The position numbers were made by a program, and so were the translations under genes. This document shows, in pieces, positions 22,865 to 60,597 of a stretch of 64,000 nucleotides of DNA. The notes beneath the pieces were generated by a model. The model did not search any database. It was given only the letters and a program-made list of their open reading frames with translations, and had not been told where the DNA came from. The stretch spans positions 1,984,001 through 2,048,000 of the forward strand of contig CBDDFZ010000001.1 of the NCBI GenBank assembly GCA_965227515.1, given 5' to 3'. How positions within the stretch are numbered: the first letter of the stretch is position 1; each line of letters begins with the position of its first letter. This DNA is from Alphaproteobacteria bacterium. GTDB taxonomy: Bacteria; Pseudomonadota; Alphaproteobacteria; CALKHQ01.

Positions 22865-23323
22865 TTGATGTACGCCTTTCCGATGACATTTACCGACGCA
22901 AGCCAATGGGACCCGGATGAGTCCGGTGTCGTCGTCGCTTGTGCCGATCTGCCAGAACTGCAAACGGCGGGCGACGACATGAGCGACGCGTTGTCGATGG
23001 CGCGCGATGCGCTCGCCCTGGTGCTGCAGATCTATGTCGAGGACAAGCGCCCGGTGCCGGCGCCATCCGCCCCGCGCAAGGGCGAAGTGGTGGTGGAGCC
23101 GGACCTCGTCACCGCGTTGCGGACGAAGCTCTATGAGGCGTTGCGCGACCGTGGGGTGACTCAGGTTGCGCTGGCCGAGCGGATGGGCACCAACCGGCGG
23201 ATGGTCGCGCGGTTGTTGGACTGGAAGCACAACGCCAACCCGGCGACGCTGGCCGATGCCCTGCGCGCCCTGGACTACAGACTCGATATCCGTGCCGTCG
23301 ATACGGCACCCCGGGCGGCCTAG
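22865..23323 (+). CDS. hicB: HicB family antitoxin with C-terminal HTH
   Basis: DLPELQTAGD..DALSMARDAL RNase H-like part plus TQVALAERMG HTH. Confidence 0.88.
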   Translation: MMYAFPMTFTDASQWDPDESGVVVACADLPELQTAGDDMSDALSMARDALALVLQIYVEDKRPVPAPSAPRKGEVVVEPDLVTALRTKLYEALRDRGVTQVALAERMGTNRRMVARLLDWKHNANPATLADALRALDYRLDIRAVDTAPRAA

Positions 23324-23335
23324 CTGACCAGAAGA

Positions 23336-23392
23336 CGTGGATGCCTCCTCGGAACAAGTCCGAGGACAGGCTCCACAAGTCCGCGCATGACG
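23336..23392. repeat. Palindromic repeat half (CGTGGATG...CATGACG) with nested hairpin
   Basis: Same ends as the 1991/42423 family; internal CCTCGGAACAAGTCCGAGG hairpin. Confidence 0.7.
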
Positions 23393-23522
23393 GAGTGAGG
23401 TAGAAAGCGTAGATGGGCTAACGGCCCTTGTTTGGTGGCGTGCATGAGTGGTCGTCCCTCAAGATGTCGGTGTCATACACGGAGTCGGGTTTGCCGCTCC
23501 AAGACATCGAGGAGAGACGACC

Positions 23523-24566
23523 ATGAACTACTATGCCGGGATTGACGTTTCTTTGGAATGGTCATCGGTGTGCGTTGTTGACGGCGCGGGCGGGATTGTC
23601 TGCGAGGCTCGTATTGCGAGCACGCCGGCGGGTTTGTTGTTGTGGTTTGGGTCTTTGGGGATTTCGGTTGAGCGGATTGGTCTTGAGGCGGGGCCGTTGT
23701 CGCAATGGCTTGTGCGGGGATGTAGCGAGGGCGGTCTTTCGGTTGAGTTGCTGGAGACGCGTCATGTTGCGCGAGCGCTTTCGACGATGCCGGTGAAGTC
23801 GGACCGCTCGGACGCACGCGGGATTGCTCAGCTGATGCGTGTGGGCTGGTTTCGTCCGGTTCACTGCAAGTCTTTGGCGGCCCAGGAGATGCGGGCCCTT
23901 TTGAAGGGTCGCGACCAGCTCCGCGCGAAGCTGCACGATCTTGAGATGCACCTTCGTGGTCAGCTGCGGAACTTCGGGCTGAAGGTAGGGCACACCACCA
24001 GGCGCAGCTTTTCGACACGTATTTCGGAGCTTGTGGCGGGGCATCCGGTACTGGAGGCGGTGGCGGGGGCGCTGCTGTCGGCACGCGATGGCCTGTTGCT
24101 ATCGTTCACGGCGCTGGACCGGCAGGTCCGGGCGGCGGCGCAGGCCGACGATCGCGCTCGCCTGCTGATGACGGTGCCGGGCGTGGGGAGCATTGTCGGA
24201 CTGACCTACTTGTCGGGAGTGGACGACCCCGGGCGGTTTGCCTCGTCGCGCCTGGTGGGTGCGCACTTCGGCCTGACGCCGACCAAGCGCCAGTCGGGCG
24301 AGAGCGAGGTGATGGGGCGGATATCGAAGGTAGGGGACGCCGATGTGCGCTCGGCCCTCTATGAGGCGGCACACGTGGTTCTGACCCGGCCGATCGAGGG
24401 CGGCTGGCTGAAGAGCTGGGCGATGAAGCTGGCCAGGCGTGCGGGCATGAGGAAGGCGAAGGTCGCGCTGGCGCGCCGGCTCGCCGTGATCATGCACCGG
24501 ATGTGGGTTGACGGCACACCGTTCAACCATGCCGGACCGGTGCGCCCGGCGATGGCGACAGCATGA
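23523..24566 (+). CDS. IS110-family DEDD recombinase/transposase
   Basis: GIDVS, LEAG, KSDRSDA (DEDD), VPGVG, QSG (catalytic Ser), ISKVGD, ALARRL; RBS GAGGAG before ATG 23523. Confidence 0.96.
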   Translation: MNYYAGIDVSLEWSSVCVVDGAGGIVCEARIASTPAGLLLWFGSLGISVERIGLEAGPLSQWLVRGCSEGGLSVELLETRHVARALSTMPVKSDRSDARGIAQLMRVGWFRPVHCKSLAAQEMRALLKGRDQLRAKLHDLEMHLRGQLRNFGLKVGHTTRRSFSTRISELVAGHPVLEAVAGALLSARDGLLLSFTALDRQVRAAAQADDRARLLMTVPGVGSIVGLTYLSGVDDPGRFASSRLVGAHFGLTPTKRQSGESEVMGRISKVGDADVRSALYEAAHVVLTRPIEGGWLKSWAMKLARRAGMRKAKVALARRLAVIMHRMWVDGTPFNHAGPVRPAMATA

Positions 24567-24599
24567 TGGCCGCGGCATAAGGAGAACCGACACACGAGC

Positions 24600-24800
24600 T
24601 TCGACGGGCACCGACACCGGCCCGTCGAGCGCCGTCCCGCGCCGGGACGATGGATCAGGTCAGGCCGCCATCCGGGATGTCGCCTCGCATGAGAGCACGC
24701 TTCCGTAGATTGGACCGACCGATCCTCGCATATCCATCTTGGCGGCGGCCCTGCGCCGACCCCGTACAGAAGCATGACCCAGGCGCCGGGACGACGAAAA
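24600..24800 (+). ncRNA. Putative bridge/seek RNA of the IS1111-type element (copy 1)
   Basis: Non-coding right end with nested stems and four segments matching target and donor junction; boundaries approximate. Confidence 0.75.
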
Positions 24801-24830
24801 AGGGATTGACCAACAATGGCCCGTTACAGA

Positions 24831-24918
24831 AGCCCGGGTGGAGCGGAGCGCAACCCGGGGCCTTCATTGCCGTGATAAGATTTGTCCCCGGGTTTCACTG
24901 CGTTTCACCCGGGCTACG
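24831..24918. repeat. GTAG-type REP doublet (REPIN), left arm interrupted by the IS110 element
   Basis: (CGT)AG CCCGGGTGGAGCGGAGCGCAACCCGGGG ... CCCCGGGTTTCACTGCGTTTCACCCGGGCTACG. Confidence 0.85.
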
Positions 24919-24995
24919 GTTCCACGCACTTCAATTGTCAGCCTCGACATTGCCCAATGGGCGCGCGTCGAGCGTGACAGCCATTGAGGGAATGG

Positions 24996-25040
24996 AAAGG
25001 AAAGAAGGCGGCGGGCCGGTTGCGGAGCAGCCCGCCGCCT
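24996..25040 (-). terminator. Rho-independent terminator of the met operon
   Basis: 11-bp stem AGGCGGCGGGC/GCCCGCCGCCT followed on the minus strand by TCTTTCCTTT, just after the metE stop. Confidence 0.7.
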
Positions 25041-59096: not shown

Positions 59097-59179
59097 GTAG
59101 CCCGGGTGGAACGAAGTGCAACCCGGGGACATACCTTCACCTCCAAGTTCCCCGGATTGCGCTCCGCACCATCCGGGCT
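59097..59179. repeat. GTAG-type REP doublet, right arm interrupted by IS110 copy 2
   Basis: GTAGCCCGGGTGGAACGAAGTGCAACCCGGGG ... CCCCGGATTGCGCTCCGCACCATCCGGGCT; the missing ACG resumes at 60600. Confidence 0.85.
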
Positions 59180-59209
59180 TCTGTAACGGGCCATTGTTGG
59201 TCAATCCCT

Positions 59210-59410
59210 TTTTCGTCGTCCCGGCGCCTGGGTCATGCTTCTGTACGGGGTCGGCGCAGGGCCGCCGCCAAGATGGATATGCGAGGATCGGTCGGTCCAA
59301 TCTACGGAAGCGTGCTCTCATGCGAGGCGACATCCCGGATGGCGGCCTGACCTGATCCATCGTCCCGGCGCGGGACGGCGCTCGACGGGCCGGTGTCGGT
59401 GCCCGTCGAA
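59210..59410 (-). ncRNA. Putative bridge/seek RNA (copy 2)
   Basis: Same sequence as 24600-24800 on the minus strand. Confidence 0.75.
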
Positions 59411-59443
59411 GCTCGTGTGTCGGTTCTCCTTATGCCGCGGCCA

Positions 59444-60487
59444 TCATGCTGTCGCCATCGCCGGGCGCACCGGTCCGGCATGGTTGAACGGTGTGCCGTC
59501 AACCCACATCCGGTGCATGATGACGGCGAGCCGGCGCGCCAGCGCGACCTTCGCCTTCCTCATGCCCGCACGCCTGGCCAGCTTCATCGCCCAGCTCTTC
59601 AGCCAGCCGCCCTCGATCGGCCGGGTCAGAACCACGTGCGCCGCCTCATAGAGGGCCGAGCGCACATCGGCGTCCCCTACCTTCGATATCCGCCCCATCA
59701 CCTCGCTCTCGCCCGACTGGCGCTTGGTCGGCGTCAGGCCGAAGTGCGCACCCACCAGGCGCGACGAGGCAAACCGCCCGGGGTCGTCCACTCCCGACAA
59801 GTAGGTCAGTCCGACAATGCTCCCCACGCCCGGCACCGTCATCAGCAGGCGAGCGCGATCGTCGGCCTGCGCCGCCGCCCGGACCTGCCGGTCCAGCGCC
59901 GTGAACGATAGCAACAGGCCATCGCGTGCCGACAGCAGCGCCCCCGCCACCGCCTCCAGTACCGGATGCCCCGCCACAAGCTCCGAAATACGTGTCGAAA
60001 AGCTGCGCCTGGTGGTGTGCCCTACCTTCAGCCCGAAGTTCCGCAGCTGACCACGAAGGTGCATCTCAAGATCGTGCAGCTTCGCGCGGAGCTGGTCGCG
60101 ACCCTTCAAAAGGGCCCGCATCTCCTGGGCCGCCAAAGACTTGCAGTGAACCGGACGAAACCAGCCCACACGCATCAGCTGAGCAATCCCGCGTGCGTCC
60201 GAGCGGTCCGACTTCACCGGCATCGTCGAAAGCGCTCGCGCAACATGACGCGTCTCCAGCAACTCAACCGAAAGACCGCCCTCGCTACATCCCCGCACAA
60301 GCCATTGCGACAACGGCCCCGCCTCAAGACCAATCCGCTCAACCGAAATCCCCAAAGACCCAAACCACAACAACAAACCCGCCGGCGTGCTCGCAATACG
60401 AGCCTCGCAGACAATCCCGCCCGCGCCGTCAACAACGCACACCGATGACCATTCCAAAGAAACGTCAATCCCGGCATAGTAGTTCAT
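59444..60487 (-). CDS. IS110-family DEDD recombinase/transposase
   Basis: Protein identical to 23523-24566. Confidence 0.96.
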   Translation of the reverse strand: MNYYAGIDVSLEWSSVCVVDGAGGIVCEARIASTPAGLLLWFGSLGISVERIGLEAGPLSQWLVRGCSEGGLSVELLETRHVARALSTMPVKSDRSDARGIAQLMRVGWFRPVHCKSLAAQEMRALLKGRDQLRAKLHDLEMHLRGQLRNFGLKVGHTTRRSFSTRISELVAGHPVLEAVAGALLSARDGLLLSFTALDRQVRAAAQADDRARLLMTVPGVGSIVGLTYLSGVDDPGRFASSRLVGAHFGLTPTKRQSGESEVMGRISKVGDADVRSALYEAAHVVLTRPIEGGWLKSWAMKLARRAGMRKAKVALARRLAVIMHRMWVDGTPFNHAGPVRPAMATA

Positions 60488-60597
60488 GGTCGTCTCTCCT
60501 CGATGTCTTGGAGCGGCAAACCCGACTCCGTGTATGACACCGACATCTTGAGGGACGACCACTCATGCACGCCACCAAACAAGGGCCGTTAGCCCAT

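What the first reader, a model, noticed from the sequence alone, without database searches (positions are those of the whole stretch)
24567..24830. Bridge/seek RNA with four readable guide segments: an RNA-guided recombinase aimed at the host REP family
Seen: the 264-nt non-coding right end of the IS110 element has an outer stem (CGTCCCGCGCC 24633 / GGCGCCGGGACG ending 24793) enclosing two stem-loops. Loop 1 (GGATC.GGTC 24652 / GACC.GATCC 24725) holds CCATCCGGG (24668-24676), the reverse complement of the target right arm CCCGGATGG, and CGTAG (24704-24708), the target left arm plus AG core. Loop 2 holds CCATCTT (24734-24740), the reverse complement of AAGATGG, and TACAGAAG (24765-24772). Together these cover the predicted circle junction TACAGA-AG-ATGG, whose joined form exists only after excision. 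Established: IS110/IS1111 DEDD recombinases use such RNAs (bridge RNA, seekRNA). Inference: this is a naturally programmed member with an AG core, right guide before left guide and the RNA downstream of the ORF, and is a candidate reprogrammable recombinase.
Basis: partly seen in the sequence, partly recalled or inferred. Interest (0 to 1): 0.92.

Follow-up and report, generated by a model that had tools for sequence, protein, structure and literature searches.

The report
IS1111-type insertion sequence guide RNA
The non-coding right end of this insertion sequence almost certainly encodes the guide RNA that steers its recombinase into a repeated host sequence, which is a good new example of a mechanism described in 2024 and not a new kind of system.

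Summary
All six sequence segments sit at the stated coordinates. The four guide-like matches are far beyond chance: at least 3 of the 4 never occurred in 100,000 dinucleotide shuffles.

The element is a 1,420-bp IS1111-group member of the IS110 family (window 23413-24832). It has 20 full copies with intact transposase genes in this genome, and every copy is inserted at GTAG|CCYGGRTG of a REP family.

Three lines of evidence support an RNA guide:
- A covariance model built only from 18 relatives in other genomes hits 24628-24801 (+) at 101 bits, E 1.5e-21.
- The stems show compensatory changes: 19 of 30 pairs, and 90% of cells paired against 36-51% in slid controls.
- Guide segments covary with flanking DNA across relatives (0 of 20,000 permutations for both target guides). 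Inside this genome a G-to-A change in the guide tracks C-to-T in the target (11:2 against 0:7, p = 4.6e-4).

Position downstream of the gene, guide order and REP targeting all match published IS1111 seekRNA/bridge RNA features. Expression could not be tested.

Verdict: a new member of a known kind, of moderate to low interest.

The parts
23413..24832 (+). Complete IS1111-group insertion sequence, 1,420 bp counting one copy of the AG core
   Evidence: Ends are identical in 20 of 20 genomic copies. Contigs of public runs break at 23408-23434 and 24833-24834, and interior depth is about 12-17 times the flank depth.
23408..23412 (+). Left target arm plus AG core (CGTAG) of the interrupted REP
   Evidence: GTAG precedes the element in 20 of 20 copies and CGTAG in 15 of 20. 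Unoccupied REPs read GTAGCCYGGRTG at 114 sites.
23413..23427 (+). Left end: 6-nt terminal extension ATGGGC, then the subterminal inverted repeat TAACGGCCC
   Evidence: Read. Its partner GGCCCGTTA lies at 24818-24826 (8 of 9 complementary). The same layout, with TAATCGGCC / GGCCGATTA, is seen in relatives.
23523..24566 (+). tnp, a 347-aa DEDD transposase with the GL-P----SG motif (GLTPTKRQSG)
   Evidence: Pfam PF01548 and PF02371. NCBIfam NF033542 at 237 bits. Intact in 20 of 20 copies.
24601..24628 (+). Hairpin between the tnp stop codon and the RNA domain (8-bp stem CGACGGGC / GCCCGTCG); role unknown
   Evidence: Read, and paired in the MFE fold. A hairpin lies at the same place in close relatives.
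24628..24801 (+). Bridge/seek RNA domain
   Evidence: Covariance model R1, built from 18 relatives without this genome's sequences, scores 101.2 bits, E 1.5e-21, full length, + strand only.
24634..24646 (+). P1 outer stem, 5' strand (pairs with 24779-24792)
   Evidence: Helices 1 and 2: 7 of 8 pairs of helix 1 show changes on both sides. Mapped to the window.
24652..24667 (+). P2 stem, 5' strand (pairs with 24711-24725); it closes the target-binding loop
   Evidence: Helix 3: 13 pairs, 7 with changes on both sides, 90.4% of cells paired.
24668..24676 (+). Right target guide CCAUCCGGG, complementary to the top strand of the right arm CCCGG(A/G)TGG
   Evidence: The guide is G in subfamily A and A in subfamily B plus c20. 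This tracks C against T in the target (11:2 against 0:7, p = 4.6e-4). Across relatives, self matches average 6.8 nt and non-self 2.8 nt, with 0 of 20,000 permutations reaching the observed sum.
24703..24708 (+). Left target guide plus core, CCGUAG, identical to the top strand of the left arm
   Evidence: Across relatives, self matches average 4.8 nt and non-self 2.8 nt, 0 of 20,000 permutations. AG is invariant in alignment A1.
24711..24725 (+). P2 stem, 3' strand
   Evidence: helix 3.
24734..24740 (+). Right donor guide CCAUCUU, complementary to A-AG-ATGG of the predicted circle junction
   Evidence: Read. Covariation is weak (818 of 20,000 permutations). Two related elements change together (GGCAU with left end ATGCC).
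24742..24763 (+). P3 hairpin between the two donor guides
   Evidence: Helix 4: 7 pairs, 5 with changes on both sides, 93.8% of cells paired.
24765..24772 (+). Left donor guide UACAGAAG, identical to the IS right end plus core
   Evidence: ACAGAAG, AGAGAAG and AGCGAAG in the RNA each go with the same variant at the right end in 22 of 22 elements.
24779..24792 (+). P1 outer stem, 3' strand
   Evidence: helices 1 and 2.
24806..24811 (+). TTGACC, a candidate -35 box of a promoter completed only in the excised circle (17-nt spacer, then GAAG plus AT from the left end)
   Evidence: Read. TTGAC stands at the same distance from the end in relatives. No sigma-70-like promoter was found in the integrated element. 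This is an inference.
24818..24832 (+). Right subterminal inverted repeat GGCCCGTTA, then the terminal extension CAGAAG ending in the AG core
24833..24860 (+). Right arm and body of the interrupted REP (CCCGGGTGG...ACCCGGGG)
   Evidence: REP census; many 30-nt matches.
59178..60597 (-). Second copy of the same IS in the window, with its RNA domain at 59209-59382 (-)

Best explanation
Window 23413-24832 is an active-looking IS1111-group insertion sequence of the IS110 family. Its 266-nt right non-coding end encodes, on the same strand as tnp, a bridge/seek RNA of about 160-175 nt (24628-24801).

Architecture. An outer stem P1 encloses three things. The first is a stem P2 whose large loop carries the right target guide CCAUCCGGG, which pairs with the top strand of CCCGG(A/G)TGG. 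After a small hairpin, the same loop carries the left target guide CCGUAG, which has the same sequence as the top strand and so pairs with the bottom strand of the left arm plus the AG core. The second and third are a single-stranded right donor guide and left donor guide on either side of hairpin P3. The donor guides match the junction TACAGA-AG-ATGG that forms when the element is excised as a circle.

Proposed mechanism. The DEDD/serine recombinase bound to this RNA brings the circle junction and a host REP together. It exchanges strands at the shared AG dinucleotide, inserting the element between GTAG and CCYGG.

What is shown here: the anatomy, the conserved structure, guide/target and guide/end covariation, and the REP specificity.

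What is inferred from the family: transcription, binding to the transposase, the circle intermediate, and the use of the donor guides.
For: Protein family:
- Pfam PF01548 and PF02371.
- NCBIfam 'IS110 family RNA-guided transposase', 237 bits against a cut-off of 140.
- The C-terminal domain resembles the ISCro4 and IS621 transposases in the PDB (E 1e-11 and 7e-11).

Copies:
- 20 full copies, all flanked GTAG|...|CCYGGRTG, all with open tnp.

Structure:
- RNAalifold on 16 sequences gives 30 pairs in 4 helices.
- 89.9% of cells are paired, against 36-51% when partners are slid by 1-3 columns.
- 19 pairs have changes on both sides, against 6-8 in slid controls and a shuffled mean of 13.0 that never reached 19 (0 of 500).
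- G-U pairs are frequent (for example 14 of 16 and 11 of 16 sequences at two pairs). This fits the + strand only.

Independent model:
- Model R1, built without this genome's sequences, hits 24628-24801 at 101 bits, E 1.5e-21.
- It also hits all 20 copies and one deleted copy in the genome, and nothing else.

Covariation across relatives, using 14 representatives:
- RTG against own right flank 6.8 nt, against other flanks 2.8 nt, 0 of 20,000 permutations.
- LTG 4.8 against 2.8 nt, 0 of 20,000 permutations.
- LDG against own right end 7.3 against 5.8 nt, 0 of 20,000 permutations.
- Four named plasmid elements (Acidiphilium, Methylocystis, Sinorhizobium, Microvirga) also show RTG matches of 9, 7, 9 and 7 nt, counting the core G.

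Within this genome:
- Guide CCAUCCGGG (13 copies) sits at CCC sites in 11 and at CCT sites in 2.
- Guide CCAUCCAGG (7 copies) sits at CCT sites in 7 of 7. Fisher p = 4.6e-4.
- Subfamily A occupies 9 of 27 CCCGGA sites against 2 of 62 CCCGGG sites (p = 2.6e-4).

Literature:
- The non-coding region lies downstream in IS1111 elements, the top-strand match lies 5' of the bottom-strand match, the RNA co-purifies with the transposase, and ISPa11 targets REP (PMC11187229, sections read).
- IS1111 bridge RNAs lie in the right end, with donor nucleotides in a multiloop (PMC11208160, passages).
Against: - No RNA data are available: no run on record as RNA holds the element.
- Rfam 15 has no match in the non-coding end.
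- The single-sequence fold is not unusually stable: z = -1.5, and 17 of 200 shuffles fold as well.
- In that fold the target guides are partly paired. Mean P(unpaired) is 0.33 for RTG and 0.41 for LTG, against 0.33 for the whole RNA.
- Of 22 elements, 3 do not fit simply. In L033 both target guides mismatch its flanks. In L040 the RTG mismatches. In L061 the 7-nt match is displaced by one base from the core.
- RDG covariation is weak (818 of 20,000 permutations).
- LDG covariation rests on only three sequence states, so on few events.
- For ISEc11, a short 82-nt seekRNA was sufficient for movement. The donor-matching part may therefore be dispensable in this group.
- At this copy the left guide matches only 5 nt, including the core.
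Confidence: 0.9

Rival explanations
1. Only the P2 module (about 24650-24727) is a functional guide RNA, that is, a short seekRNA carrying the two target guides. In this reading the donor-matching segments CCAUCUU and UACAGAAG are not used as RNA guides. The element ends would be recognised by the protein through the subterminal inverted repeats.
For: In ISEc11 the 82-nt peak seekRNA alone supported movement at 42%, more than the 154-nt form. RDG covariation here is weak (818 of 20,000). The left end ATGG(G) is nearly invariant in the clade, so little can be tested.
Against: The LDG changes together with the right end in all 22 elements (ACAGAAG, AGAGAAG, AGCGAAG). RDG GGCAU goes with the left end ATGCC in L049 and L063. 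P1 and P3, which frame the donor segments, show compensatory changes. Durrant et al. report donor-binding nucleotides in a multiloop in many IS1111 orthologues.
Confidence: 0.2
2. The conserved right end acts as DNA, not RNA. It would be either a folded single strand or a set of protein-binding sites that select the target by DNA-DNA pairing, as in IS200/IS605 elements.
For: No transcript was observed. G-T pairs are also possible in single-stranded DNA, so the strand bias does not exclude it.
Against: [quoted passage not shown] The transposase belongs to the same family. The architecture is the same as published.
Confidence: 0.03
3. The matches are chance, or relics of duplicated ends and flanks, and have no function.
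For: The motifs were defined after inspection. The shortest one (CGTAG) occurs in 8% of shuffles.
Against: At least 3 of the 4 motifs occurred in 0 of 100,000 shuffles. Guide/flank covariation holds across unrelated genomes. A compensatory single-base change is seen within this genome. An independent model hits at E 1.5e-21.
Confidence: 0.01

Closest known systems
ISPa11 (IS1111 group, Pseudomonas aeruginosa) and its seekRNA
   Same: DEDD transposase, RNA in the non-coding region downstream of tnp, insertion at a fixed position in a host REP, and a top-strand match 5' of the bottom-strand match (PMC11187229, sections read).
   Different: The host class, the REP sequence and the guides are different. 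I held no ISPa11 sequence, so identity was not measured. The RNA of ISPa11 was shown experimentally; this one was not.
ISEc11 / ISXne4 seekRNAs (IS1111 group)
   Same: Long (154 nt) and short (82 nt) forms are comparable in size to the P1-closed domain here (24634-24792, 159 nt) and the P2 module (24652-24725, 74 nt). Natural redirection by guide replacement is documented for them.
   Different: Here the natural redirection is a single guide base within one genome, matched to two REP variants, not a wholesale replacement between species. The size correspondence is my inference.
IS621 bridge RNA (IS110 group), with solved structures 8wt6 and others
   Same: Four guide segments (LTG, RTG, LDG, RDG), a dinucleotide core, REP targeting, and a composite RuvC-Tnp recombinase. 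The PDB match to the Tnp domain is E 7e-11.
   Different: In IS621 the RNA lies in the left end upstream of the gene, the guide order is reversed, the core is CT, the donor guides lie in a simple internal loop, and the subterminal repeats are only 2-3 bp.
ISPpu9 / ISPpu10 of Pseudomonas putida
   Same: IS110-family elements inserted into REP sequences. ISPpu9 has a small RNA gene (Ssr9) downstream of the transposase gene (search listing and start of the abstract of PMC12288879). ISPpu10 is among the six elements with predicted bridge RNAs.
   Different: Not compared at the sequence level here. ISPpu9 also has orphan ssr9 copies. In this genome model R1 found no orphan copy: 20 full elements plus one deleted element.

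Membership tests
IS110 family (DEDD transposases) | Transposase with an N-terminal DEDD/RuvC-like domain and the C-terminal Transposase_20 domain | tested here: met
   PF01548 at E 9.5e-13 and PF02371 at E 2.3e-20. NF033542 at 237 bits against a cut-off of 140.
IS1111 group | Subterminal inverted repeats of 7-17 bp set in from both ends (definition) | tested here: met
   TAACGGCCC at 23419-23427 and GGCCCGTTA at 24818-24826, 8 of 9 complementary, each 6 nt from its end. The equivalent repeat is 11 of 12 in the L038 group.
IS1111 group | The longer non-coding region lies downstream of tnp | tested here: met
   110 nt upstream (23413-23522) against 266 nt downstream (24567-24832).
IS1111 group | Transposase of 330-350 aa with the GL-P----S(T)G motif | tested here: met
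   347 aa, with GLTPTKRQSG in the translation.
IS1111 seekRNA / bridge RNA | Segments matching both strands of the target, with the top-strand-complementary one 5' of the bottom-strand one | tested here: met
   RTG at 24668-24676 precedes LTG at 24703-24708. Both covary with the flanks.
IS1111 seekRNA / bridge RNA | Conserved secondary structure that holds the guides in loops | tested here: met
   the guides are unpaired in the consensus. Single-sequence thermodynamics pairs them partly.
IS1111 seekRNA / bridge RNA | Donor-binding nucleotides matching the joined element ends | tested here: inconclusive
   Both segments are present. The LDG covaries in 22 of 22 elements but over only three states. 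The RDG is weak.
IS1111 seekRNA / bridge RNA | The RNA is transcribed and bound by the transposase | not testable with these tools
   No run on record as RNA is listed.
IS1111 seekRNA / bridge RNA | Changing the guides changes the target | tested here: met
   Met only as a natural experiment: a G/A guide variant tracks a C/T target variant (p = 4.6e-4), and different guides go with different flanks in relatives. No bench test was possible.
Rfam families | A match above a family's gathering score | tested here: not met
   No match in 24567-24832 even at E up to 10. The only hits are spurious miRNA-model matches to the REP hairpin at 24830-24916.

The most novel reading that the evidence does not exclude
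Two sublineages of one RNA-guided IS live together in a single genome, and they have divided the host REP family between them through one guide nucleotide.

- Guide G goes with CCC sites and guide A with CCT sites.
- The site census also gives a natural in vivo read-out of mismatch tolerance. The perfect rU:dA site is occupied in 9 of 27 cases, and the rU.dG wobble site in 2 of 62.
- An rG.dT wobble at guide position 7 (target position 3) is tolerated in 2 of 13 copies of subfamily A.

In addition, relatives suggest that the system is modular in nature in ways that, as far as I read, have not been characterised. One element (L047) carries a second target-binding module that matches its actual site. 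One (L054) carries about 1.1 kb of cargo. One (L033) sits at a site that matches another element's guides.
Probability: 0.5. Interest if true: 0.45.

Novelty: new member of a known kind. Interest (0 to 1): 0.3.

Why it matters
It adds a well-resolved natural example to the RNA-guided IS110/IS1111 recombinases, which are being developed as programmable tools for inserting DNA.

The example offers several things:
- 20 intact copies.
- A defined 14-nt target and an AG core.
- A readable four-guide RNA.
- Two co-resident guide variants with matched targets.
- A census of 114 empty sites that shows how strongly one wobble pair lowers use of a site.

This could help to set specificity rules for IS1111-type systems, which are less studied than IS621. 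It also explains how REP sequences in this genome are being colonised. It does not reveal a new mechanism.

Tried and rejected
- Rfam scan of 23300-25000 at E up to 10. There was no RNA family in the non-coding end. The miRNA-model hits at 24830-24916 are the REP palindrome and were set aside.
- Single-sequence folding. It was not informative alone (z = -1.5), and the MFE fold buries part of the target guides. I relied on the comparative structure instead.
- Promoter scan of the integrated element. It found no sigma-70-like site. The three terminator-like sites are the subterminal repeats.
- Expression. No RNA holder is listed, so nothing can be said about transcription.
- Laying contigs of four DNA runs. 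This showed only that contigs break at the element's ends and that the interior is multi-copy. No contig joins across the element and no circle junction was seen. The best holder may be the source sample, so this is not independent evidence.
- A search of the genome for the predicted circle or tandem junction found 0 sites.
- Handshake-like extensions. These are LTG followed by AU, matching the IS left end, and LDG followed by a base matching the first flank base. My script for this was faulty for part of the rows. A hand count gave 7 of 12 target groups, which is not convincing, so I make no claim beyond a note.
- L042, L044 and several partial loci (L037, L045, L050-L052, L055-L059) were left out of the guide tables and alignments. 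Their downstream regions did not align or were cut by contig ends. L044 showed an RTG match with one wobble, but its other guides could not be placed.
- I did not try to name the organism or to establish whether this IS has an ISfinder entry.
- Supplementary files of the two 2024 papers were not seen. They may list this element or close relatives. These files are the ISfinder-wide tables in PMC11187229 and Supplementary Table 5 of PMC11208160.

Full report
**What is at the site.** The sequence at 24567-24832 is the non-coding stretch between the stop codon of a 347-aa ORF (23523-24566) and the end of a repeated element. The ORF carries Pfam DEDD_Tnp_IS110 and Transposase_20. It matches NCBIfam NF033542, 'IS110 family RNA-guided transposase', at 237 bits against a cut-off of 140. 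Its C-terminal domain resembles the ISCro4 and IS621 transposases among solved structures (E 1e-11 and 7e-11).

**Element, copies and target.**
- The window's genome (5.52 Mb, two contigs) holds 20 full copies and one internally deleted copy.
- All 20 begin ATGGGCTAACGG and end GTTACAGAAG. All are preceded by GTAG (CGTAG in 15) and followed by CCYGGRTG.
- The element is therefore 23413-24832, 1,420 bp.
- AG ends both the left flank and the element, so AG is the shared core at which crossover can occur. No longer overlap exists.
- The flanks belong to a REP family whose unoccupied form reads (C)GTAGCCYGGRTGRARCG...AAYCCGGG. There are 114 unoccupied GTAGCCYGGRTG sites: 60 CCCGGG, 33 CCTGGG, 18 CCCGGA and 3 CCTGGA.
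- All 20 tnp genes are open. Two copies have an in-frame 6-nt deletion.
- Thirteen copies are at least 99% identical. The element was not found in 20 related genomes searched, apart from two weak fragment hits. This suggests a recent, lineage-restricted expansion.
- A second copy lies in the window at 59178-60597 on the minus strand.

**Chance.** I ran 100,000 dinucleotide-preserving shuffles of 24567-24815. The four motifs occurred in 1.3%, 8.2%, 0.74% and 0.08% of shuffles. Two or more occurred together in 0.19%, and three or more never. The motifs were chosen after inspection, so the comparative tests below carry more weight.

**Comparative structure.**
- A scan of genome contigs with the transposase gave 29 loci at 43-69% identity, mostly alphaproteobacterial. 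The plasmid collection gave 245 records at 60-90% DNA identity. I fetched four of these.
- The region downstream of tnp aligns across these elements, with conserved blocks separated by variable blocks.
- RNAalifold on 16 sequences predicts four helices:
  - an outer stem P1;
  - a stem P2 closing a large loop;
  - a two-pair extension of P1;
  - a hairpin P3.
- Counting pairs on that structure gives 89.9% of cells paired, against 36-51% when partners are slid by 1-3 columns. Nineteen of 30 pairs have changes on both sides, against 6-8 in slid controls. The covariation score is 0.451 against 0.08-0.13, and 0 of 500 shuffles reached the observed value on four of five measures.
- Frequent G-U pairs fit only the tnp strand.
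- A covariance model built from 18 relatives, without any sequence of this genome, hits 24628-24801 (+) at 101.2 bits, E 1.5e-21. It also hits the second window copy, all 20 genomic copies and the deleted copy, with no other match.

**Where the guides sit.** In the consensus, the right target guide (24668-24676) and the left target guide plus core (24703-24708) lie unpaired in the loop closed by P2, separated by a small variable hairpin. The right donor guide (24734-24740) and the left donor guide (24765-24772) are single-stranded on either side of P3, in the multiloop closed by P1. This agrees with the remark of Durrant et al. that many IS1111 orthologues have donor-binding nucleotides in a multiloop (passages read).

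**Guide/target covariation across relatives.** I tabulated flanks, ends and the four RNA windows for 22 elements.
- The right target guide is complementary to the element's own right flank, starting at the first flank base, over 6-10 nt in 17 of 22. The figure is 19 of 22 if the rU.dG wobble in the two local subfamilies is allowed.
- With 14 representatives, the self mean is 6.8 nt and the non-self mean 2.8 nt. No permutation of 20,000 reached the observed sum.
- The left guide gives 4.8 against 2.8 nt, again 0 of 20,000.
- The left donor guide reads ACAGAAG, AGAGAAG or AGCGAAG exactly as the element's right end does, in 22 of 22. Only three states exist.
- The right donor guide is weakly informative (818 of 20,000), because the left end ATGG(G) hardly varies. 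The pair L049/L063 has GGCAU with left end ATGCC.

**Results against a simple picture.**
- L033 matches neither flank with its own guides. Its site AACTAG|AGCGGTTT matches the guides of the Methylocystis element L061.
- L040 has a matching left guide (8 nt) but a mismatching right guide.
- L061's 7-nt match is displaced by one base from the core.

**Covariation inside this genome.** The 20 copies form two groups. Subfamily A has 13 copies. The second group has 7 copies: subfamily B with six copies at 95-97% identity, plus c20 at 89%. Within the four guide segments the two groups differ at one base of the right target guide, CCAUCCGGG against CCAUCCAGG.
- Subfamily A lies at CCC sites in 11 copies and at CCT sites in 2. 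The other group lies at CCT sites in 7 of 7 (Fisher p = 4.6e-4).
- Against the unoccupied background of 78 CCC to 36 CCT, the bias of the second group gives p = 5.1e-4.
- At the guide's U, subfamily A prefers the Watson-Crick partner. Nine of its 11 CCC sites are CCCGGA, while unoccupied CCC sites are 18 CCCGGA to 60 CCCGGG (p = 2.6e-4). This means 9 of 27 A-sites are occupied against 2 of 62 G-sites.
- The second group shows no such enrichment (1 of 7 against 3 of 36, p = 0.52), and few such sites exist.
- These insertions may not all be independent events.

**Comparison with what is known.** I read sections of Siddiquee et al. 2024 (PMC11187229). They report the following:
- IS1111 members have subterminal inverted repeats, transposases of 330-350 aa with GL-P----S(T)G, and the long non-coding region downstream.
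- An RNA from that region co-purifies with the transposase as a long form (154 nt) and a short form (82 nt).
- That RNA holds a top-strand match 5' of a bottom-strand match.
- ISPa11 targets a REP.
- Guide replacement redirects the element, both naturally and experimentally.

I read passages of Durrant et al. 2024 (PMC11208160). They report predicted bridge RNAs in 93% of IS1111 elements, located in the right end.

The present element meets each sequence-level criterion:
- Subterminal repeat: 8 of 9 complementary, set 6 nt in from each end.
- Non-coding regions: 110 nt against 266 nt.
- Transposase: 347 aa, with GLTPTKRQSG.
- Guide order: as published.

It is therefore a member of the IS1111 group with a typical bridge/seek RNA. 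The P1-closed domain (159 nt) and the P2 module (74 nt) are close in size to the published long and short forms. This correspondence is my inference.

**Promoter.** No sigma-70-like promoter is found in the integrated element, as reported for ISEc11. TTGACC at 24806-24811 lies 17 nt before GAAG at the right end. Joined to the AT of the left end, this gives GAAGAT as a possible -10. TTGAC stands at the same distance in relatives. I infer a junction promoter that would drive tnp and the downstream RNA from the excised circle. This was not tested.

**Limits.** No RNA run was available, so transcription, processing and binding are inferred from the family. Whether the donor guides are used is open, since the short ISEc11 RNA sufficed in the published assay.

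**Verdict.** The features presented as distinctive are the published norm for IS1111 elements, so this is a new member of a known kind. The single-base guide split between two co-resident sublineages, and the site census, are the most useful additions.

Noticed in passing
L047:2562-3075: A relative in a Hyphomicrobium MAG has a complete RNA module followed by a second module that looks like a target-binding loop (about 2770-2840). The right guide of the second module is complementary to the actual right flank (G|GGACGGAA). The guide of the first module matches the target used by its sister element L054.
   Followed up: partly
L054:1428-3888: A relative in Rhodopseudomonas pseudopalustris DSM 123 carries about 1.1 kb of extra DNA between the RNA region and the right end. 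Its right guide still matches the flank (G|GGATCGA), so it may be a natural cargo-carrying IS1111-type element.
   Followed up: partly
L033:1382-2801 and L061: L033 sits at AACTAG|AGCGGTTT. This site matches both target guides of the Methylocystis plasmid element L061 and not its own guides. Either another element's RNA guided the insertion in trans, or the guides were replaced later.
   Followed up: partly
L031:2766-3800: The right end of this relative is split by another insertion sequence that encodes a zinc-ribbon-type transposase. The true right end and the matching flank CCTGATCT lie about 1 kb downstream.
   Followed up: partly
window 24601-24628: A hairpin with an 8-9-bp stem lies between the tnp stop codon and the RNA domain. 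A hairpin is present at the same place in close relatives. Its role is unknown; it may be a processing site, a terminator-like element or part of a longer RNA.
   Followed up: no
window 24633-24649: The 5' strand of P1 (CGUCCCG) can instead pair with the adjacent invariant CGGGACG to form a local hairpin. This competes with the outer stem and could be an alternative conformation of long and short RNA forms.
   Followed up: no
window 24830-24916: The REP downstream of the element forms an inverted pair with a second REP. This gave spurious matches to two miRNA models in Rfam. The partner REP carries an intact target (CCGTAGCCCGGGTG on the minus strand).
   Followed up: yes
G000:C1:998352-999209 (outside the window): One copy of the element has an internal deletion that removes most of tnp and part of the RNA region. 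Model R1 still scores it at 46 bits.
   Followed up: no
window 24709-24710 and relatives L047, L054: The left target guide is followed by AU, which matches the first bases of the IS left end (ATGG). In L047 and L054 it is followed by CU and the left end begins CTGG. This could be a handshake-like position, but it rests on a single evolutionary event.
   Followed up: partly
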